Part shown: in pieces, positions 1,639 through 58,540 of the stretch
Layout of the letters: each line of letters begins with the position of its first letter
How positions within the stretch are numbered: the first letter of the stretch is position 1
Assembly (NCBI GenBank): GCA_041742965.1
Contig: JBGTNQ010000004.1
Span: 70,241 to 134,240, forward strand
Length of the DNA stretch: 64,000 nucleotides
Reading direction: 5' to 3'
DNA from: Minisyncoccia bacterium
GTDB lineage: Bacteria; Patescibacteriota; Minisyncoccia; Phycocordibacterales; Zambryskibacteraceae
The notes under the pieces: model-generated
The model's database searches: none
Told to the model about the DNA's origin: nothing
What the model saw: the letters and a program-made list of their open reading frames with translations, nothing else
Translations under genes and position numbers: made by a program

Positions 1639-3123
1639 ATGATATTCAAGATGAAAGACTTATTTCCCATACCAGAAACTGTTTCACGAGTAACAGAAAC
1701 CTTAGAAAAAGCGGGTTTTGAGGCATATCTCATAGGTGGATGTGTCCGTGACCTTTTTCTAGGTAAAACCCCAAAGGATTGGGATGTGACAACAAACGCC
1801 AAACCGGATGAAATAACAGGGTTGTTTCCAAAAACATTTTATGAAAATGAGTATGGGACAGTCGGGGTGGTAAACGAGGACGAAAAAGACCCAGCTTTAG
1901 AAATTGTTGAGGTAACCCCGTATCGCACAGAAAGTGAGTATAGCGACAGCCGAAGGCCAGATAGTGTATCCTTTGACGCCACCCTGGAAGACGACCTGAA
2001 GCGTAGGGATTTTACAATGAATGCCATAGCTTTAAACCTCTCAAAAAACAAGGTGGTGGATCCGTTTGGCGGGAGAGTAGACCTCCAAAAAGGGCTAATT
2101 AGGGCGGTGGGAGAGCCGAAAAAGCGTTTTAGTGAGGATGCGCTTAGAATGCTTCGGGCAATTAGACTTCACGCAGAACTTGGTTTTACTATAGAAGAAA
2201 AAACTAAAGAGGGAATAAAAGACAGTGCAGAGTTATTGAAAAAAATTGCAAAAGAAAGAATCAGGGATGAATTCATAAAAACCCTAATGTCGGAAAATCC
2301 AATGGAAGCCATCGCAGTGGCTCAAAATTTAGGTGTACTGGAGTTTGTGGTGCCTGAGCTACTAGATGCCATAGGCATAGAGCAAAATCAAGCTCATGCC
2401 TTTGATGTATGGACGCATCTTTTAAAATCCCTACAACATTCAGCGGATAAAAAATGGCCAATCCACATACGCTTAGCAGCTCTTTTCCATGATATTTCCA
2501 AACCAGAGACTCGTAGATGGTCAAAAGAGAAGGAAGAATGGACATTTTATGGCCACGAGGTTGTCGGTGCCAGAAAAACAGAGGCGATACTAAAAAATCT
2601 AAAATTTCCAAATGAACTTGTAACAACAGTAGTTAAACTCGTAAGGTGGCATATGTTTTTTTCCGACACTGAACAAATCACTCTTTCGGCAGTCAGGAGA
2701 CTAATATCAAATGTTGGTAAGGAAAATGTTTGGGACCTTATGAACCTACGAGTATGCGACCGTATAGGGACTGGAAGACCCAAAGAAAACCCATATCGCT
2801 TAAGAAAATACCAATCAATGGTGGAGGAGGCGATGAGAGACCCTGTTTCAGTAGGAATGCTAGCCATTGACGGCAAAGACATTATGGATATAGCCAAGAT
2901 ACCAGCAAGTCCCAAGATTGGCCAAATACTTCACGCACTTCTTGAAGAAGTTTTGGAAAACCCTGAGTTGAACAAAAAAGATATTTTATCCAAAAAAGCT
3001 ATAAAGCTGGCCATATTTTCAGAAGAAGAGCTAAAAGAAAGGGGGGATTCTGGGAAAGAAAAGAGGGAAGAGGAGGAGGAAAAGATACTCAAAACAATCA
3101 GAGGTAAGTACGGAGTTCAATAA
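1639..3123 (+). CDS. cca: CCA-adding tRNA nucleotidyltransferase (HD domain-containing)
   Basis: 494 aa; N-terminal GGCVRDLFLG...DWDVTT nucleotidyltransferase motif and HD-domain histidines; strong RBS AGAGGGGAG upstream. Confidence 0.85.
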   Translation: MIFKMKDLFPIPETVSRVTETLEKAGFEAYLIGGCVRDLFLGKTPKDWDVTTNAKPDEITGLFPKTFYENEYGTVGVVNEDEKDPALEIVEVTPYRTESEYSDSRRPDSVSFDATLEDDLKRRDFTMNAIALNLSKNKVVDPFGGRVDLQKGLIRAVGEPKKRFSEDALRMLRAIRLHAELGFTIEEKTKEGIKDSAELLKKIAKERIRDEFIKTLMSENPMEAIAVAQNLGVLEFVVPELLDAIGIEQNQAHAFDVWTHLLKSLQHSADKKWPIHIRLAALFHDISKPETRRWSKEKEEWTFYGHEVVGARKTEAILKNLKFPNELVTTVVKLVRWHMFFSDTEQITLSAVRRLISNVGKENVWDLMNLRVCDRIGTGRPKENPYRLRKYQSMVEEAMRDPVSVGMLAIDGKDIMDIAKIPASPKIGQILHALLEEVLENPELNKKDILSKKAIKLAIFSEEELKERGDSGKEKREEEEEKILKTIRGKYGVQ

Positions 3124-3183
3124 TCCGCACACCAACTTTCTCACGGTTTCTACAAAAATATAAGGACAAAGTTGGTGTGCGGA
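3124..3183. repeat. perfect 16-bp inverted repeat hairpin (TCCGCACACCAACTTT ... AAAGTTGGTGTGCGGA) right after the cca stop
   Basis: Read directly; 28-nt spacer; shares the CCGCACAC(C/T)AA(C/T)TT motif with 3471-3490, 3765-3784 and 5056-5068. Confidence 0.8.
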
Positions 3184-3470
3184 TAAACACAAAGACCGCA
3201 GAGCAGTTGCGGTGCTTGCGGCCTTAGGCGAAAGGGCCGCTCAGTTAGGAATGAAAAGGTGATATATCCGATAAAACAAAAAAATAACTAGGTTGGTGAT
3301 ATATGATTATCCTTCACGCTCCAGACCAAGCTGGTCTCTCGCAGAGTTCGAACTCTTGAAAGAACTATTGCTCAGAAATTTGTCCTTGAACTTCCTTCTG
3401 TGCTTCTGGTGAAAGTATATCACCTATAAAGGACATTGAAAATAAAACTGTGGATATCTAATTGTCCTTT

Positions 3471-3784
3471 ACCCGCACACTAACTTTATTCAAAGATACT
3501 TTTACTTTCTTTTATTCTCTCCATTAACTGCCTTCTGGCCTGCCCACGCAATTTAAGCATAGATTCCCTATGACGCGCATCATTTTCCGCAGAATAAGCT
3601 TCATAATAAACGAGGCAATACGGCCTTTTGTTTTTTGTAGAAACTACAAGCCCGCTGTTATGTTCTATTAATCGCCTTTTTAAGTTATTAGTTGAACCTA
3701 TATACAACTCGTTAACCTTTCTTGCTTTCAATACATATACATAGAACATAACAAAATAAAGTTAGTGTGCGGGTCAAGGCTATT
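3471..3784. mobile_element. GIY-YIG mini-element: 87-aa GIY-YIG gene bounded by perfect 20-bp inverted repeats ACCCGCACACTAACTTTATT (3471-3490) / AATAAAGTTAGTGTGCGGGT (3765-3784)
   Basis: The IRs are exact reverse complements and overlap the stop codons of the GIY-YIG gene and of xth. Confidence 0.5.
3486..3749 (-). CDS. GIY-YIG nuclease family protein (standalone, YhbQ-like)
   Basis: 87 aa; MFYVYVLKARKVNELYIGSTNNLKRRLIEHN is a canonical GIY-YIG motif. Confidence 0.8.
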   Translation of the reverse strand: MFYVYVLKARKVNELYIGSTNNLKRRLIEHNSGLVVSTKNKRPYCLVYYEAYSAENDARHRESMLKLRGQARRQLMERIKESKSIFE

Positions 3785-8802: not shown

Positions 8803-8846
8803 AAAGTTTCGTGTGAGTGCTCAGTTGTAAGTTGTTAGTCATTTTC

Positions 8847-21066: not shown

Positions 21067-21621
21067 ATGGACACTAACCAAATAATAAAAGAACAGCTTT
21101 CATTGGCTCCCAAAGAGCTTAAAGCTTATATTTCTGAAGAAAAGTGGTCTCTTGCAACACAGGAAGTTGCAAGAAACATTAACTGTTCTCAGGAACAGAC
21201 TGAGGCCATACAAAACGAGGTAATAATTACTCTTCTTGGATTAGACTTAAGGACCAATATTCCTAACAACTTAAAAGAAGTAGGGTTAAATGATTTACAG
21301 ATAAGACAGATTGTCAGTGAGTTGGATGAAAAGGTTTTTAAACCTGTCATTGAATTTTTACCAACAGAAACAGAAGCGGAAAATCCGGAAAATCTTATAC
21401 CCCAAGGTGACCATTTGATTGAGGACTCAGCGGGAAACAAAGATAATGTTTTGCCACCCATTCCACAAAAAACAACGCTAGAAAAGAAAATCGGACCAAT
21501 AATGAATGGCTCACCAGAAATTGACGCTAATTGGGAAAAGAGAAAAGAAACCCTAGGAGAACACCAAGTGGTGACAGAGACATACAAGGGGAGTGACCCG
21601 TACAGAGAACCTCTTAGTTAG
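21067..21621 (+). CDS. hypothetical acidic protein (operon member)
   Basis: 184-aa ORF translationally coupled to the upstream gene. Confidence 0.4.
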   Translation: MDTNQIIKEQLSLAPKELKAYISEEKWSLATQEVARNINCSQEQTEAIQNEVIITLLGLDLRTNIPNNLKEVGLNDLQIRQIVSELDEKVFKPVIEFLPTETEAENPENLIPQGDHLIEDSAGNKDNVLPPIPQKTTLEKKIGPIMNGSPEIDANWEKRKETLGEHQVVTETYKGSDPYREPLS

Positions 21622-21633
21622 TTTTAAGTTTAG

Positions 21634-22037
21634 AGTTTTAAGTTTTTAGTAAATGCAAGAACAAAGATCAAAATCTTACAAAGATTTGGTGGTTTGGAAA
21701 AAATCTTGTGATTTGGTTATTTTGATTTATAAACTATGTTCTAATTTCCCGAAAGAAGAGTTGTACGGCATTACATCTCAAATAAAAAGATCAGCGATTT
21801 CTATTCCATCCAATATTGCAGAAGGGAGTAGGCGAGGAACCAAAAAAGATTTTCATCACTTTTTGAACATCTCACTCGGATCTGCCGCTGAATTGGAGAC
21901 TCAGATTGAAATATCTAAAAAATTATCATTTGGAGAAAAAAGAGACTATAATGAAACGGAATCAATATTATTAGAGGTGACAAAAATGCTGTATAAACTG
22001 TCATCAACTCTAAACTGACTACTAAAAACTTAAAACT
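21634..22037. mobile_element. four-helix-bundle gene cassette bounded by a 17-bp perfect inverted repeat AGTTTTAAGTTTTTAGT (21634-21650) / ACTAAAAACTTAAAACT (22021-22037)
   Basis: IRs are exact reverse complements; adjacent tandem AGTTTTAAGTTT(A) units extend the stem imperfectly to about 30 bp. Confidence 0.55.
21653..22018 (+). CDS. four-helix-bundle protein (23S rRNA intervening-sequence protein family)
   Basis: 121 aa; YKDLVVWKKS...FPKEELYGITSQIKRSAISIPSNIAEGS...FLNISLGSAAELETQ matches the TIGR02436-type family. Confidence 0.7.
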   Translation: MQEQRSKSYKDLVVWKKSCDLVILIYKLCSNFPKEELYGITSQIKRSAISIPSNIAEGSRRGTKKDFHHFLNISLGSAAELETQIEISKKLSFGEKRDYNETESILLEVTKMLYKLSSTLN

Positions 22038-22041
22038 AATT

Positions 22042-22476
22042 ATGCGCTTTCAAGTACCACAATTCATAGAAGTAGAGGACAAAATATTCGGACCGCTAAC
22101 ATTTAAGCAGTTCATATACCTTGCCGGAGCAGGCGGTATAGCGGTGGCGGCGTTTAGTTTTTTACCAAAATTTTTCGCACTTCTCATAAGCGCCCCCGTA
22201 GTTATACTCGGGCTAGCTTTGGCTTTTTATAAGATAAACAACAGGCCTTTTATATTTATGGTTGAATCTTTTTTCAAATATTTCAGCAAGGAAAGATTAT
22301 ATATTTGGAAAAAGGCAGACAAAAAACCAATAAGAACAAAAGACGGGGACACAGCTAACCCAATGGTCTATATTCCAAAACTTTCTAACAGCAAACTAAA
22401 AGATTTGTCTTGGGAACTTGGAGTAAAAAAGACAGGACTTCAGGAAGAAGAAAAGGTTGGAGAAGAAAAGGAATAG
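22042..22476 (+). CDS. PrgI-family (VirB3-like) T4SS membrane protein
   Basis: 144 aa; MRFQVPQFIEVEDKIFGPLTFKQFIYLAGAGG N-terminus followed by two TM helices as in PrgI. Confidence 0.55.
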   Translation: MRFQVPQFIEVEDKIFGPLTFKQFIYLAGAGGIAVAAFSFLPKFFALLISAPVVILGLALAFYKINNRPFIFMVESFFKYFSKERLYIWKKADKKPIRTKDGDTANPMVYIPKLSNSKLKDLSWELGVKKTGLQEEEKVGEEKE

Positions 22477-22579
22477 GGAATGAGGAATAGGAAAAAATAA
22501 TCGATAAAATATTACTGTTTTCCACTTTTCTAAATAAATTTCATTATTCCTTATTCATTATTCGGTGTAGAATATAACC

Positions 22580-23218
22580 ATGGCTATAAAAGCGAGGGCT
22601 ACACAGGAGTTTGTACCAATCCAAGAAGTTCGTGACGGTGTCGTAGTGATGAAAGATGGCAGTATGCGAGCCATTATCATAGCTTCGTCCCTTAACTTTT
22701 CTCTAAAATCAGAGGATGAAAAAACCGCTGTTCTTCTACAGTTTCAGGATTTTCTAAATTCTTTAGATTTTCCGATACAGATTTTTGTTGAATCCAGACG
22801 ACTAGACATTAGACCTTATCTGGCACTACTTGAAGAACAGAAAAAAATACAGACGAATGACCTCATGAAAATACAGGTTGAGGAGTATATAGGTTTTGTT
22901 AGAACCTTTACTGAAAATAACAATATAATGACAAAAAGTTTCTTTGTGGTTATACCTTACTCACCAGCAATGCTTCAGGGGAAAACGGGGTCATTGAGTA
23001 GTCTGTTAGGAAAGAAAAATACTTCTAATGAGAGAGAATCTGTGGGCCTTCTCTTTGAAGAAAATCGAACTCAGTTAGAGCAAAGATTGTCTGTAGTAGA
23101 ACAAGGTCTCATGAGGTGTGGAGTTCGTGTCCAGAGATTAGGAAACGATGAAGTTATTGAGCTTTTCTATAAATTATTTAATCCGGGAGAAACAGAAAGA
23201 CCGATTGTTCAGGAGTAA
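22580..23218 (+). CDS. VirB4/TrsE-like N-terminal domain protein (encoded as a separate gene)
   Basis: 212 aa; QEFVPIQEVRDGVVVMKDGSMRAIIIASSLNFSLKSEDEK resembles the VirB4 N-domain. Confidence 0.5.
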   Translation: MAIKARATQEFVPIQEVRDGVVVMKDGSMRAIIIASSLNFSLKSEDEKTAVLLQFQDFLNSLDFPIQIFVESRRLDIRPYLALLEEQKKIQTNDLMKIQVEEYIGFVRTFTENNNIMTKSFFVVIPYSPAMLQGKTGSLSSLLGKKNTSNERESVGLLFEENRTQLEQRLSVVEQGLMRCGVRVQRLGNDEVIELFYKLFNPGETERPIVQE

Positions 23219-23228
23219 TTTCACAAAA

Positions 23229-25049
23229 ATGTCTATCTTTAATTTTTTAAAAGGGAAAAAAGGGGTGGCCGAAGAGGCGCAGGGAGTTTCTATCCTTCCC
23301 CATGAAATATACGAAGCGAATACCTTAGATTTAAAGGATATTATTGCCCCCAGTGCCCTAAAAGTTAGCCCGAAAGACCTAAATCTCGGAGAAAAAATAG
23401 TCAGAAGCTTTTTTGTCATTTCTTATCCAAGGTTTTTGGCAGAAAGCTGGTTTGCCCCAATCATAAACTTAGATAGAGTTTTTGATATTTCCATCTTTGT
23501 CCATCCGGTTGAAACTTCTCGCGTCTTAAAACAATTCCAAAAGAAAGTAGCTGAAGTTCAAAGTCAAATACACGAAAGAGAAGCCAAGGGGTTGGTAAGA
23601 GATCCAATGCTTGATGTTGCATATCAAGACCTTGAAAATCTCCGAGACAACCTACAGCAGGCTCAAGAAAAGCTATTTGATGTTGGTCTATATATATCTA
23701 TATACGCTGACAGTGTAGGAGAACTAGATAAAATAGAGTCAGAGATAAAATCTATTCTTGAATCAAAACTTGTATATATAAAGCCGGCCCTTTTCCAACA
23801 AGAAGAAGGCTTCAGAAGTATAGTGCCTCTAGGAACAGATTTGCTAGAAGTTCACTCAAAACTGAATTCTTCTCCGCTATCAAGTTTGTTCCCATTTATC
23901 TCTTTTGACCTAACCCAAGAAAAGGGAATCCTCTATGGTATCAACAGACACAACTCAAGCCTTGTGCTCTTTGACCGCTTTTCACTTGAAAACTACAACT
24001 CCATAACCTTTGCAAAATCTGGGTCTGGGAAATCATATGCCACAAAATTAGAGATACTGAGAACCCTTATGTTTGATACTGACGTTATGGTTATTGACCC
24101 AGAACAAGAGTATGAATATATGTCTGAGGCGGTGGGAGGAAGGTCTCTGAAAATTTCTCTAAATTCTGAGCATCACATAAACCCGTTTGAACTTCCAATT
24201 CCCGGAGAAGATGAATCTGCTGCCAATGTGCTTCGTTCAAATATCATAAACCTCGTTGGTCTATTTAGATTAATGTTGGGAGGACTTACATCCGAAGAAG
24301 ACGCCATCATAGACAGGGCAATCACCGAGACATATGCCCTGAAAGACATCACCGCTGAATCAGATTTTAAAAATATCGAGCCCCCACTGCTTTCTGACTT
24401 TGAGCTTGTTCTCTCTGGACTTGAGGGAGGAGAATCCTTGGCTCAGAGACTAACAAAATACACCAGAGGCACTTGGGCAGGGTTCATAAACAGGCCTACA
24501 AATATAGACATAAATAAAAAATTTGTAGTCTTCTCTTTGCGTGATATGGAGGATGAACTCAAGCCGATTGCCATGTATATTGTCACGCACTATATATGGA
24601 GTGCCATAAGAAAAGAGAAGAAGAAAAGACTTTTGGTCATAGATGAAGCTTGGTGGATGATGAAGTCTGAAGACACGGCTTCTTTCCTGCTAAACCTCGC
24701 TAAGCGAGGTAGGAAATATGGTCTAGGACTTGCTACTATCACTCAAGATGTGGATGACTTTCTTAAGTCTCCATATGGAACACCTATTATCACGAACTCT
24801 TCGATACAAATTCTTCTAAAACAGTCCCCGACAACCATTGATAAACTTCAACAGGTCTTTAATCTGACAGACGAGGAGAAATATCTACTATTAGAATCTG
24901 GAGTGGGAGAAGGAATATTTTTTGCAGGACTCAAACATGTGGCAATCAAAATAGAAGCATCGTACACGGAAGACCAGATTATTACATCAGACCCATTTCA
25001 AATTCTGGCTATTCAGAAAGCCAAGAAAGAATTAAGTGACTCTACATAA
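23229..25049 (+). CDS. VirB4/TraE-like T4SS ATPase (C-terminal ATPase part)
   Basis: Own start MSIFNF preceded by AGGAG; Walker A AKSGSGKS, Walker B LLVIDEAWWMM; ORF track extends upstream to 23148 in this frame. Confidence 0.7.
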   Translation: MSIFNFLKGKKGVAEEAQGVSILPHEIYEANTLDLKDIIAPSALKVSPKDLNLGEKIVRSFFVISYPRFLAESWFAPIINLDRVFDISIFVHPVETSRVLKQFQKKVAEVQSQIHEREAKGLVRDPMLDVAYQDLENLRDNLQQAQEKLFDVGLYISIYADSVGELDKIESEIKSILESKLVYIKPALFQQEEGFRSIVPLGTDLLEVHSKLNSSPLSSLFPFISFDLTQEKGILYGINRHNSSLVLFDRFSLENYNSITFAKSGSGKSYATKLEILRTLMFDTDVMVIDPEQEYEYMSEAVGGRSLKISLNSEHHINPFELPIPGEDESAANVLRSNIINLVGLFRLMLGGLTSEEDAIIDRAITETYALKDITAESDFKNIEPPLLSDFELVLSGLEGGESLAQRLTKYTRGTWAGFINRPTNIDINKKFVVFSLRDMEDELKPIAMYIVTHYIWSAIRKEKKKRLLVIDEAWWMMKSEDTASFLLNLAKRGRKYGLGLATITQDVDDFLKSPYGTPIITNSSIQILLKQSPTTIDKLQQVFNLTDEEKYLLLESGVGEGIFFAGLKHVAIKIEASYTEDQIITSDPFQILAIQKAKKELSDST

Positions 25050-39879: not shown

Positions 39880-39885
39880 CTTTAT

Positions 39886-40111
39886 GTTCTAAATTTCTTT
39901 GGAATCAAAGATATAAATCTCTAAGCAACGAGGCTCTCCGGGCCTGTCAAGCGCTTCATCGAAGACGTTCTGGATGGATTTATTCCATTCTGGGACTATC
40001 TTTAGAGAATCGCGGAACTTTTGGTACGATTATTAAAAGTGTTGCTTAGAGATTTATGTTTTCGATTCCTACACCCTCCCCGACCCCCAAAGGTCGGGGA
40101 GGGTTCGTTTA
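39886..40111 (+). ncRNA. candidate structured ncRNA (about 225 nt) between ruvB and pilB
   Basis: 17-bp perfect long-range stem (39913-39929 with 40041-40057), internal hairpins, terminal 12-bp GC hairpin CCCTCCCCGACC/GGTCGGGGAGGG (40075-40104) followed by a T-rich run; the 410-bp gap has no ORF. Confidence 0.35.
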
Positions 40112-58401: not shown

Positions 58402-58477
58402 TGGTGCGCGATACAGGACTCGAACCTATGACCTTCCCGGTGTAAACGGGTTGCTCTACCAACTGAGCTAATCGCGC
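58402..58477 (-). tRNA. tRNA-Val (anticodon TAC), CCA encoded
   Basis: Reverse complement GCGCGATTAGCTCAGTTGGTAGAGCAACCCGTTTACACCGGGAAGGTCATAGGTTCGAGTCCTGTATCGCGCACCA. Confidence 0.8.
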
Positions 58478-58540
58478 AAAATATATAAACTGACAACTAA
58501 CAACCCGCAACTAACTAACCGGCCCAATACCTACCAAGAC

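What the first reader, a model, noticed from the sequence alone, without database searches (positions are those of the whole stretch)
21622..22041. Four-helix-bundle (rRNA-IVS-type) gene bracketed by perfect 17-bp inverted repeats, inserted inside the T4SS-like operon
Four-helix-bundle (TIGR02436-type) proteins are classically encoded within 23S rRNA intervening sequences, which are stem-loop elements excised by RNase III. Here the same kind of gene sits between two operon genes. It is flanked by AGTTTTAAGTTTTTAGT / ACTAAAAACTTAAAACT, extended by tandem AGTTTTAAGTTT units into an imperfect stem of about 30 bp. This suggests an IVS-like, possibly mobile or RNase-III-processed cassette that has jumped into a protein-coding operon.
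Basis: partly seen in the sequence, partly recalled or inferred. Interest (0 to 1): 0.6.

Follow-up and report, generated by a model that had tools for sequence, protein, structure and literature searches.

The report
Mobile hairpin-enclosed gene inside an operon
A small four-helix-bundle gene of the kind known from ribosomal-RNA "intervening sequences" sits inside a long hairpin between two genes of a secretion-system operon, and comparison with about 180 related loci shows that such hairpin cassettes come and go between operon genes in many bacteria.

Summary
Window 21653..22018 (+) encodes a 121-aa PF05635/TIGR02436 four-helix-bundle (4HB) protein. A perfect 18-bp inverted repeat (21634-21651 / 22020-22037) brackets it and extends to a ~28-bp stem built from two tandem 14-nt units. 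The 420-nt cassette fills the whole gap between the upstream stop codon and the prgI-like start codon.

It behaves as a mobile cassette, not a fixed operon gene. In 80 orthologous operons, most species have an empty junction of 4-10 nt. 4HB cassettes occur sporadically at three different junctions. ORF-less hairpins and one truncated remnant also occur.

About 70% of 103 4HB genes from unrelated operons (rplM|rpsI, sdhA|sdhB, gmk|nadD) have their own bracketing repeat, against 4% of control ORFs. Arm sequences differ between cassettes and are often tandem heptamers, as in the Coxiella 23S rRNA IVS.

The cassette diverges far less between relatives than its flanks (3-5% vs 15-27% nt; dS 0.24 vs 0.9-1.5), which indicates recent lateral exchange into the same site. 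The ORF is under purifying selection (dN/dS 0.04-0.17).

RNase III processing remains untested, and a G·U-wobble test gave no sign of selection specific to the sense RNA. I found no description of this outside rRNA in the searchable literature.

The parts
21067..21621 (+). Upstream operon gene (184 aa, no Pfam family, ends ...DPYREPLS). Its TAG stop codon (21619-21621) lies in the base of the cassette stem.
   Evidence: the conserved DPYRE C-terminus was used to locate orthologues
21615..21651 (+). Left (5') arm of the hairpin. It holds two tandem 14-nt units (21620-21633, 21634-21647). The perfect 18-nt core is 21634-21651. The arm has stop codons in several frames and ends 1 nt before the ATG.
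   Evidence: 0 substitutions against L001 over 21619-21652
21653..22018 (+). 121-aa four-helix-bundle protein gene (PF05635 / TIGR02436), under purifying selection.
   Evidence: dN/dS 0.04 (vs L001) and 0.17 (vs L008)
22002..22042 (+). Right (3') arm. The perfect core is 22020-22037. The inner part overlaps the last codons of the ORF. The arm ends 4 nt before the prgI-like ATG, or reaches that ATG's first base (22042) in the RNAfold register.
21622..22041 (+). The whole 420-nt cassette, which is the entire spacer between the two operon genes.
   Evidence: orthologous junctions without a cassette have a median of 10 nt
21607..22086 (+). Low-divergence tract against relative L001: 3-5% nt differences (one 60-nt bin at 12%), compared with 15-27% in the adjacent flanks. 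It covers the cassette plus about 45 nt of the prgI-like gene.
22042..22476 (+). PrgI-family gene immediately downstream (144 aa).
   Evidence: PF12666, E 1.1e-11
22477..22579 (+). ORF-less hairpin filling the PrgI|VirB4N spacer (arms about 22478-22494 / 22539-22556, RNAfold -17.7 kcal/mol). It has the same build as the cassette but no gene. L001 keeps only the right arm.
22580..23218 (+). N-terminal VirB4 fragment gene (212 aa, TraC-like).
23219..23228 (+). Empty junction (10 nt) between VirB4N and VirB4C. In relative L008/L002 this junction holds a second 4HB cassette with different arms (AGTAATCAGTAAA / TTTACTGATTACT).
23229..25049 (+). C-terminal VirB4 ATPase gene (606 aa).

Best explanation
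This is an intervening-sequence-type hairpin cassette living in an mRNA operon instead of an rRNA gene.

Anatomy (shown). The element is a small gene for a four-helix-bundle, Avd-like protein. No promoter-like site was found directly upstream of it. It sits in the loop of a roughly 30-bp stem whose arms are tandem 7/14-nt units. It occupies exactly the stop-to-start junction between two co-transcribed genes and points the same way as the operon.

Evolution (shown).
- Such cassettes are gained, lost, truncated and reduced to ORF-less hairpins at several junctions of this conserved operon and of many unrelated operons.
- Each cassette keeps complementary arms, although arm sequences differ between cassettes.
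- This particular cassette has been exchanged between related lineages more recently than its flanking genes diverged.
- The protein is under purifying selection.

Mechanism (inferred, by analogy with rRNA IVSs cleaved by RNase III). In the polycistronic transcript the arms pair. This extrudes the inserted ORF and brings the upstream stop codon next to the downstream start codon. The double-stranded stem is probably an RNase III substrate, or is opened by translating ribosomes. Either way the insertion would do little harm to the operon.

Spread (inferred). Transfer between relatives most likely uses recombination through the conserved flanking genes, which would explain why cassettes collect at junctions of highly conserved genes. 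The 4HB protein probably binds nucleic acid and helps the element persist or move. Its exact role is not shown.
For: Protein family and repeat.

Presence/absence in 80 one-per-species orthologous operons.
- Site 1: 37 empty, 10 with 4HB, about 14 ORF-less hairpins, of 67.
- PrgI|VirB4N: 39 empty, 13 hairpins, 4-5 with 4HB.
- VirB4N|VirB4C: 63 empty (median 4 nt), 8 hairpins, 6 with 4HB, of 78.
- One truncated 4HB remnant, L038 4937-5062.

Bracketing repeat as a family property.
- In the operon set, 80% of 20 cassettes score >=11, against 4.4% of 390 control ORFs (Mann-Whitney p 1.3e-10).
- Mismatched upstream/downstream flank pairs score at control level, mean 7.1.
- Across all 103 cassettes, including 81 from a metagenome scan, 72% score >=11.
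- Tandem 7/8/14-nt periodicity occurs in 35% of arms, against 2.4% of random windows.

Orientation: 45 cassettes are co-directional and 3 anti-directional between co-oriented neighbours. No promoter-like or terminator-like site lies just upstream of the ORF.

Host contexts are diverse: rplM|rpsI, sdhA|sdhB, gmk|nadD, pyk|ppsA, x|rsmA. gmk|nadD is also occupied in Flavobacterium columnare (PMC5524665), and cmr3|cmr2 in a cas operon (PMC3936711).

The 4HB tree does not follow site or host. Nearest relatives sit at other junctions or in other operons, and the nearest hosts of occupied loci are mostly empty.

Within a genome, neighbouring junctions carry hairpins with the same arms (L011, L033, L012, L019, L053, L032, L069).

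Divergence trough.
- Window vs L001: 3-5% nt divergence across 21607-22086 against 15-27% in the adjacent flanks.
- Window vs L001: dS 0.24 for 4HB against 1.06 (PrgI), 1.48 (VirB4N) and 0.91 (upstream gene); Fisher p 2.8e-10.
- Window vs L008: dS 0.56 against 1.58 and saturated.

Arm co-evolution. The arms are identical or nearly so between window and L001 (0 of 34 and 1 of 40 differences). Window and L008 differ by a matched 7-nt indel in both arms, and the stem base is TTAG/CTAA in one and GGGC/GCCC in the other.

dN/dS is 0.04-0.17.

rRNA precedent: Coxiella IVS, 428-444 nt, 28-bp stem, heptamer repeats, RNase III cleavage inside the stem (PMC4990558).
Against: - There is no direct evidence for RNA-level function. 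Mismatches in the stems are not enriched for G·U (49 G·U-type against 68 A·C-type). Sense and antisense duplex energies do not differ (p 0.88). The stem could equally matter in DNA.
- The fold of the whole 461-nt region is not exceptional (z -1.59).
- No nuclease, recombinase or reverse transcriptase is encoded in the cassette, and no target-site duplication was seen. The movement mechanism is therefore unknown.
- About 30% of 4HB genes show no clear bracketing repeat with my ungapped scoring.
- The divergence trough rests on short metagenome contigs (L001 is 2.5 kb). The six independent L008-type assemblies show the same direction.
- Unusually strong constraint on synonymous sites cannot be formally excluded.
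- None of the 20 metagenome loci tested lay in an rRNA gene. The link to rRNA IVSs in these lineages therefore rests on the literature.
Confidence: 0.72

Rival explanations
1. DNA-level element. The inverted repeats are terminal repeats or hairpins that act in DNA, as cruciforms or single-strand hairpins used by a transposase or recombinase supplied in trans, like a MITE. Alternatively they are hairpin targets into which small genes insert. The RNA stem would be a by-product. This overlaps with the best explanation on mobility and differs only on where the stem acts.
For: There is no G·U excess and no sense/antisense energy difference. ORF-less copies with the same arms occur at neighbouring junctions of one genome, as with non-autonomous derivatives. 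The same hairpin build carries other cargos that are nucleases: GIY-YIG at window 3466-3779 and GxxExxY/PD-(D/E)xK at L064. Matched 7-nt indels in both arms could arise from arm-to-arm copying in DNA.
Against: Arm sequences are unrelated between cassettes whose proteins are 50-70% identical, which fits poorly with a sequence-specific transposase. No target-site duplication was seen and no transposase lies nearby. The strong co-orientation with host operons (45 vs 3) points to dependence on host transcription. The homologous rRNA elements are demonstrably processed as RNA.
Confidence: 0.2
2. Resident accessory gene. The 4HB protein is a genuine, if dispensable, component or regulator of the T4SS-like operon. 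The repeats are ordinary intercistronic stem-loops that stabilise or process the mRNA, and there is no mobility.
For: In 80 loci of about 12 kb, every 4HB gene found lies next to prgI or virB4N and none elsewhere. The gene is under purifying selection. Within the window's clade it is inherited at the same site (window, L001, L008, L009).
Against: It is absent from most orthologous operons, and its position varies among three junctions. Its closest relatives lie in unrelated operons such as x|rsmA and rplM|rpsI. The cassette is 4-6 times less diverged at synonymous sites than its flanks. The same junctions also collect toxin-antitoxin pairs and other accessory ORFs, so they act as a general insertion hot spot.
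Confidence: 0.06
3. Remnant of a diversity-generating retroelement. The gene is an Avd accessory protein left behind by a DGR.
For: Weak similarity to bAvd (PF22296, E 7e-4, 20.5 bits) and to NF033474 DGR Avd (E 8.8e-5). PF05635 and Avd are homologous folds (PMC10053308).
Against: Both scores are far below the curated cutoffs (20.5 vs 40; 22.8 vs 80). No reverse-transcriptase domain appears among the precomputed Pfam hits for the called genes within about 10 kb in the relative or 3 kb in the window's own contig. The gene matches the IVP family strongly instead.
Confidence: 0.02

Closest known systems
ORF-bearing intervening sequences (IVS) of 23S rRNA genes (Leptospira, Coxiella burnetii, Brucella, Xanthomonas; also reported in CPR 16S/23S rRNA insertions)
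   Same: The ORF belongs to the same protein family (PF05635, 'S23p'). Size is similar (420 nt here, 428-444 nt in Coxiella). Both have a terminal-inverted-repeat stem of about 28 bp enclosing the ORF, and tandem short repeats (heptamers) just before the ATG. Both are distributed sporadically among relatives, and ORF-less versions exist.
   Different: The host is a protein-coding operon junction rather than an rRNA helix. Here the ORF is intact and under purifying selection, whereas the Coxiella ORF is decaying and probably untranslated. RNase III excision is demonstrated for rRNA IVSs and untested here.
Free-standing homing-endonuclease genes, and intron/intein-borne ones, at conserved sites
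   Same: They sit at junctions of highly conserved genes and show patchy presence/absence. The element is less diverged than its flanks, with a short possible co-conversion tract (about 45 nt of prgI). Sister cassettes with the same hairpin build carry GIY-YIG or PD-(D/E)xK-type ORFs.
   Different: The 4HB protein has no known nuclease fold or catalytic motif. There is no splicing, and the element stays in the transcript unless it is cleaved.
MITEs / REP-type palindromic intergenic repeats
   Same: Inverted-repeat ends, ORF-less copies, several copies with the same arms within one genome, and intergenic location.
   Different: Arms are not conserved across the family. No target-site duplication or cognate transposase was found. 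Many copies carry a conserved, selected ORF in the loop.
DGR accessory protein Avd (bAvd, PDB 4DWL)
   Same: Homologous four-helix-bundle fold. The solved relatives form pentamers, per PMC4990558 and PMC10053308.
   Different: No reverse transcriptase or template/variable repeats nearby, and scores are below the Avd family cutoffs.

Membership tests
PF05635 / TIGR02436 four-helix-bundle (23S rRNA IVS protein) family | Profile score above the curated cutoff | tested here: met
   PF05635 134.9 bits (cutoff 33.8); TIGR02436 130 bits (cutoff 24)
PF05635 / TIGR02436 four-helix-bundle (23S rRNA IVS protein) family | Conserved R-x3-S-x3-N-x2-E motif (part of the GxxRxxxSxxxNxxE motif quoted in PMC3936711) | tested here: met
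   R46-S50-N54-E57 in ...IKRSAISIPSNIAEG... S50, N54 and E57 are invariant and R46 nearly invariant in alignment A2. The leading G of the published motif is not at the stated spacing.
PF05635 / TIGR02436 four-helix-bundle (23S rRNA IVS protein) family | Four-helix-bundle fold assembling into a pentamer | not tested
   Only sequence similarity to 2gsc (E 3e-24) and 2rld. No structure prediction or oligomer test was run.
rRNA intervening sequence (IVS) | Inserted in a helix of a 16S/23S rRNA gene | tested here: not met
   It lies between two protein-coding genes. Rfam finds only tRNAs in the window.
rRNA intervening sequence (IVS) | Terminal inverted repeats forming a long (>=20 bp) stem that encloses the element | tested here: met
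   18-bp perfect core, about 28-bp stem; 0 of 2000 shuffles reach it
rRNA intervening sequence (IVS) | Excision from the transcript by RNase III without religation | not testable with these tools
   The stem is long enough for RNase III (established knowledge: about two helical turns are needed). No transcript data. The wobble test gave no RNA-specific signal.
rRNA intervening sequence (IVS) | Sporadic presence/absence among close relatives, and ORF-less variants | tested here: met
DGR Avd | NF033474 / PF22296 score above cutoff, and an adjacent reverse transcriptase with TR/VR repeats | tested here: not met
   22.8 bits vs cutoff 80; 20.5 bits vs cutoff 40. No RT domain among the precomputed Pfam hits for neighbouring called genes. 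TR/VR repeats were not searched for.
MITE / IS with terminal inverted repeats | Family-specific conserved terminal repeats, target-site duplication, cognate transposase | tested here: not met
   Arms differ between cassettes: mismatched flank pairs score like controls and the arm sequences are listed. No duplication is visible at the junctions. No transposase in the neighbourhood.
Integron gene cassette | A single attC recombination site at the 3' end, arrays next to an integrase | tested here: not met
   The two arms lie on opposite sides of the ORF. These are single cassettes inside housekeeping operons, with no integrase in the neighbourhood.
T4SS-like operon (host context) | VirB4-family ATPase and PrgI-family protein in one co-directional cluster | tested here: met
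   NF045971 380.6 bits (cutoff 325); PF12666 45.6 bits (cutoff 27). A T4SS pilin domain lies downstream in relatives.

The most novel reading that the evidence does not exclude
The very large PF05635 four-helix-bundle family (more than 21,000 clusters at 50% identity) would be mostly the cargo of one unrecognised class of mobile 'hairpin-loop cassettes'. These would colonise stop/start junctions of conserved operons across bacterial phyla as well as rRNA helices, so the classical rRNA IVS would be just the special case first noticed. The same chassis would carry alternative cargos (GIY-YIG, GxxExxY/PD-(D/E)xK). The Avd-like 4HB protein would be the element's own nucleic-acid-binding mobility or maintenance factor, possibly acting on the hairpin RNA or DNA.
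Probability: 0.3. Interest if true: 0.85.

Novelty: new variant of a known kind. Interest (0 to 1): 0.68.

Why it matters

If the same hairpin-enclosed cassette routinely sits between genes of ordinary operons, three things follow.

1. Many 'four helix bundle protein' genes reported as associated with CRISPR, restriction or secretion operons may be selfish passengers rather than functional partners.
2. There would be a simple, widespread way for a gene to insert into an operon without breaking it, by self-insulating with a stem. This is testable with reporter operons.
3. The origin and mobility of rRNA IVSs could be studied by comparative genomics, because occupied, empty, ORF-less and decaying sites are all available in one conserved operon.

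It also matters for annotating and assembling CPR genomes, since at least one contig (L038) ends within such an arm.

Tried and rejected
- G·U wobble test for sense-RNA selection. Mismatch types (49 G·U-type vs 68 A·C-type) and sense vs antisense duplex energies (p 0.88) gave no signal. It neither supports nor excludes an RNA role.
- Idea that the G-rich 5' arm hides a Shine-Dalgarno site for the 4HB gene. SD-like cores are not enriched (17% vs 12% for other ORFs). Rejected.
- Own promoter or terminator. No promoter-like site lies just upstream and there is no terminator. The best promoter-like match lies inside the ORF and coincides with conserved DYN codons. Not pursued.
- Rfam. Only tRNAs in the window. 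No hit in 20 metagenome loci chosen because they lacked flanking ORFs, so none of those cassettes is in an rRNA gene.
- PADLOC defence models: no hit for the 4HB protein.
- Exact-sequence lookup of the window protein found nothing, although a later lookup (L168) shows a 121-aa PF05635 gene at the same position on a contig carrying the identical VirB4N.
- My first VirB4C query was off by one base, so site-2 calls were mostly 'NA'. This was corrected.
- My first site-1 classification mistook undetected upstream genes for long spacers. It was redone with the DPYRE motif. Four 'long hairpins' turned out to contain other ORFs.
- Target-site duplication: none is visible at the junctions.
- Literature searches found no description of IVS-type cassettes in protein-coding operons. 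They found only incidental listings of the gene between operon genes. The original 1993 PNAS paper is not held.

Full report
**1. What is in the window**

Window 21653..22018 (+) is a 121-aa ORF. It matches PF05635 '23S rRNA-intervening sequence protein' (E 1.5e-39) and TIGR02436 'four helix bundle protein' (E 3.9e-38), both far above the curated cutoffs. By sequence it resembles the solved pentameric four-helix-bundle protein XCC0516, PDB 2gsc (E 3e-24).

The ORF is bracketed by a perfect 18-bp inverted repeat, 21634-21651 / 22020-22037. The left arm is made of two tandem 14-nt units.

RNAfold pairs 21615-21631 with 22026-22042 plus three inner helices, about 28 bp. The perfect 18-mer gives an alternative register.

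The arms leave no free spacer:
- The upstream gene's TAG (21619-21621) is in the stem base.
- The left arm ends 1 nt before the ATG.
- The right arm starts 1 nt after the TGA and ends 4 nt before the ATG of the next gene.

None of 2000 flank shuffles reaches the observed repeat.

The neighbours are a conserved 184-aa protein, a PrgI-family protein, and a VirB4 ATPase split into a 212-aa N-terminal ORF and a 606-aa C-terminal ORF.

**2. Orthologous operons: occupied, empty and decayed sites**

The closest relative (4HB 83% identical; L002-L008) has the same cassette at the same junction. It also has a second 4HB cassette, with different arms, between the two VirB4 ORFs. At that junction the window has only 10 nt.

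A scan of one genome per species with a VirB4N alignment returned 80 orthologous operons from Paceibacteria-type CPR bacteria. The gene order is conserved, but the 4HB gene is sporadic and sits at three different junctions.

| Junction | Loci scored | Empty | 4HB cassette | ORF-less hairpin | Other |
|---|---|---|---|---|---|
| Upstream gene \| PrgI (the window's site) | 67 | 37 (median 10 nt) | 10 (406-459 nt) | about 14 | 4 with other inserted ORFs, 2 weak spacers |
| PrgI \| VirB4N | 69 | 39 | 4-5 | 13 | 13 weakly structured spacers |
| VirB4N \| VirB4C | 78 | 63 (median 4 nt) | 6 | 8 | 1 spacer |

The inserted ORFs at the first junction include a RelB/RelE pair. One locus (L038) keeps only a C-terminal fragment of a 4HB gene.

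The window's own PrgI|VirB4N spacer (22477-22579) is an ORF-less hairpin. Relative L001 has lost its left arm.

Within one genome, hairpins at neighbouring junctions share arm sequence, with or without the ORF. Between genomes the arms are unrelated.

**3. The bracketing repeat is a property of the gene family**

In the operon set, 80% of 20 cassettes have a bracketing-repeat score of at least 11, against 4.4% of 390 control ORFs (p 1.3e-10). Pairing the upstream flank of one cassette with the downstream flank of another gives control-level scores. The highest-scoring 'controls' turned out to be further cassettes or genes lying between two hairpins.

A metagenome scan with a 4HB alignment added 80 loci from unrelated contexts. 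Over all 103 cassettes:
- 72% have a clear repeat.
- 35% of arms show tandem periodicity of 7, 8 or 14 nt, against 2.4% of random windows.
- The 5' arm is G-rich and C-poor and enriched in stop trinucleotides, and the 3' arm mirrors it.

Where both neighbours point the same way, the cassette points with them 45 times and against them 3 times.

Host junctions include rplM|rpsI, sdhA|sdhB, gmk|nadD, pyk|ppsA and x|rsmA. Published gene tables show the same gene at gmk|nadD in Flavobacterium columnare and between cmr3 and cmr2 in a cas operon. In neither case was it recognised as an insertion.

The family is very large: 21,433 clusters at 50% identity with E <= 1e-3.

**4. Evidence for movement**

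The 4HB proteins at the operon junctions fall into several divergent subfamilies. Their nearest relatives often sit at a different junction or in a different operon, while the host VirB4N proteins are uniformly about 65% identical. The nearest hosts of occupied loci are mostly unoccupied.

The strongest result concerns this cassette itself, in the comparison of window with L001:

| Region | nt divergence | dS |
|---|---|---|
| Flanking genes | 15-27% next to the cassette (8-43% over the whole contig) | PrgI 1.06, VirB4N 1.48, upstream gene 0.91 |
| Cassette (21607-22086) | 3-5% (one bin 12%) | 4HB 0.24 |

The synonymous-site difference gives Fisher p 2.8e-10. Window against L008 shows the same pattern: dS 0.56 against 1.58 and saturated.

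The left edge of the low-divergence tract is sharp and coincides with the upstream stop codon. The right edge lies about 45 nt into the prgI-like gene.

The simplest reading is that the cassette was exchanged between these lineages, into the same site, after the flanks diverged. This is what is seen for homing elements.

The ORF is under purifying selection (dN/dS 0.04-0.17), so the protein matters.

The arms co-evolve:
- They are identical or nearly so between window and L001.
- Between window and L008, both arms differ by one 7-nt unit.
- The base of the stem changes from TTAG/CTAA to GGGC/GCCC.

**5. How it probably works**

The build matches the ORF-bearing 23S rRNA IVS. The Coxiella IVS is 428-444 nt with a 28-bp terminal-repeat stem, tandem heptamers before the ATG and an ORF of the same family, and RNase III cuts inside the stem (PMC4990558). 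ORFs of this Pfam family are also reported in CPR 16S and 23S rRNA insertions (PMC11270868).

By analogy, I infer that in the operon transcript the arms pair, extrude the ORF, and bring the upstream stop next to the downstream start. RNase III, or translating ribosomes, would then resolve the stem. The result would be that the insertion costs the operon little.

This step is inference. The wobble test found no excess of G·U over A·C mismatches and no sense/antisense energy difference. A role for the hairpin in DNA is therefore not excluded.

How the element moves is unknown. It encodes no recognisable nuclease or recombinase, no target-site duplication is visible, and no transposase or reverse transcriptase lies nearby.

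Recombination through conserved flanking genes would explain both the divergence trough and the preference for junctions of highly conserved genes. This too is inference.

The same hairpin build carries other small ORFs: a GIY-YIG gene at window 3466-3779 and a GxxExxY (TIGR04256) gene at L064. This hints at a common chassis with alternative cargos, two of them nuclease-like.

**6. Comparison with known systems and novelty**

The element works like an rRNA IVS but fails the defining location test, because it is not in an rRNA gene. I therefore file it as a variant of that kind rather than a member.

It is not a DGR Avd: scores are below cutoff and there is no reverse transcriptase. It is not a MITE/IS, because the arms are not conserved and there is no target-site duplication or transposase. 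It is not an integron cassette.

In the searchable literature I found no description of IVS-type, repeat-bracketed 4HB cassettes in protein-coding operons. That library is incomplete, and the 1993 founding paper could not be read.

From memory only, and unverified: curators of TIGR02436 and TIGR04256 may have remarked that these families are multi-copy and behave like selfish insertions.

**7. Verdict**

RNase III processing remains open.

Interest is fairly high, because one window finding generalises to a family-wide pattern and makes the old question of what rRNA IVSs and their ORFs are directly testable.

Noticed in passing
window 3466-3779 (arms 3466-3490 / 3755-3779; ORF 3486..3749, minus strand); also 3123-3184: A second repeat-bracketed cassette. 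A 25-nt, 96% inverted repeat encloses an 87-aa GIY-YIG gene (Pfam E 4e-13) directly downstream of a 253-aa minus-strand gene that looks like exodeoxyribonuclease III (by eye, not scanned). An ORF-less hairpin with related arms (ATCCGCACACCAACTTTCTC) lies about 300 nt away. It has the best bracketing repeat of any ORF in the window.
   Followed up: partly
window 22477-22579: The PrgI|VirB4N spacer is an ORF-less hairpin (arms GGAATGAGGAATAGGAAA / TTTCATTATTCCTTATTCATT, -17.7 kcal/mol). Relative L001 keeps the right arm but has a different left side, so ORF-less hairpins seem to decay quickly.
   Followed up: partly
window 22580-25049; L008-L087: VirB4 is split into an N-terminal ORF of about 212 aa and a C-terminal ATPase ORF of about 606 aa in essentially all 80 species sampled. 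The spacer is usually only about 4 nt. This is a conserved gene fission rather than a frameshift error.
   Followed up: partly
L064 6610-7169: At the VirB4N|VirB4C junction, one species carries a repeat-bracketed cassette whose cargo is a 137-aa GxxExxY protein (TIGR04256, 63.5 bits, cutoff 35) instead of a 4HB gene. The arms are ATACGAAAATTATGCGAA / TTCGCATAATTTTCGTAT.
   Followed up: partly
L038 4937-5062 and contig end at 6706: A truncated 4HB remnant (C-terminal 42 aa) sits at site 1 of a genome that also has an intact cassette at site 1b. The contig ends inside a third copy of the same arm after VirB4N, which suggests the repeats break assemblies.
   Followed up: no
L048 5002-5535; L032 4928-5452; L069 4845-5369: The same junction upstream of prgI holds other accessory ORFs without bracketing repeats in some species: a RelB/RelE toxin-antitoxin pair, a 174-aa ORF with no NCBIfam match, and a 174-aa cysteine-rich ORF that looks like a zinc ribbon. 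The junction is a general insertion hot spot.
   Followed up: partly
window 39901-40069: A 169-nt element with 29-nt, 90% complementary ends folds very stably: RNAfold -75.8 kcal/mol for the 211-nt stretch 39880-40090. It lies in a 414-nt spacer between two minus-strand genes and has no Rfam match.
   Followed up: no
window 8823-8839 and 58489-58512: Solo tandem-heptamer tracts that resemble cassette arms. AGTTGTA AGTTGTT AGT lies in a spacer between two + strand genes, with no complementary partner found. ACTGACA ACTAACA ACCCGCA ACT lies next to the tRNA at 58405-58477. They may be scars of lost cassettes, or chance.
   Followed up: no
window 21923-21952: The best sigma-70-like match in the 8-kb region (TTATCA-18-TATAAT, 10 of 12) lies inside the 4HB ORF facing the prgI-like gene. 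The -10 box coincides with conserved Asp-Tyr-Asn codons. It could in principle drive the downstream gene, but it may be incidental in AT-rich DNA.
   Followed up: no
proteins P0255, P0263, P0269, P0274, P0306, P0321, P0327, P0337: Some family members in the representative library are 260-630 aa long with the 4HB domain at the extreme N-terminus. They may be read-through fusions of a cassette ORF to the downstream host gene, or gene-calling errors.
   Followed up: no
L083 9580-9707; L074 8996-9106; L086 8549-8657: Further ORF-less hairpins lie 2-3.5 kb downstream of VirB4N, apparently beyond the VirB4C gene. In L083 the arms match the 4HB cassette at the VirB4N|VirB4C junction. More junctions of the operon than the three analysed are therefore colonised.
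   Followed up: no
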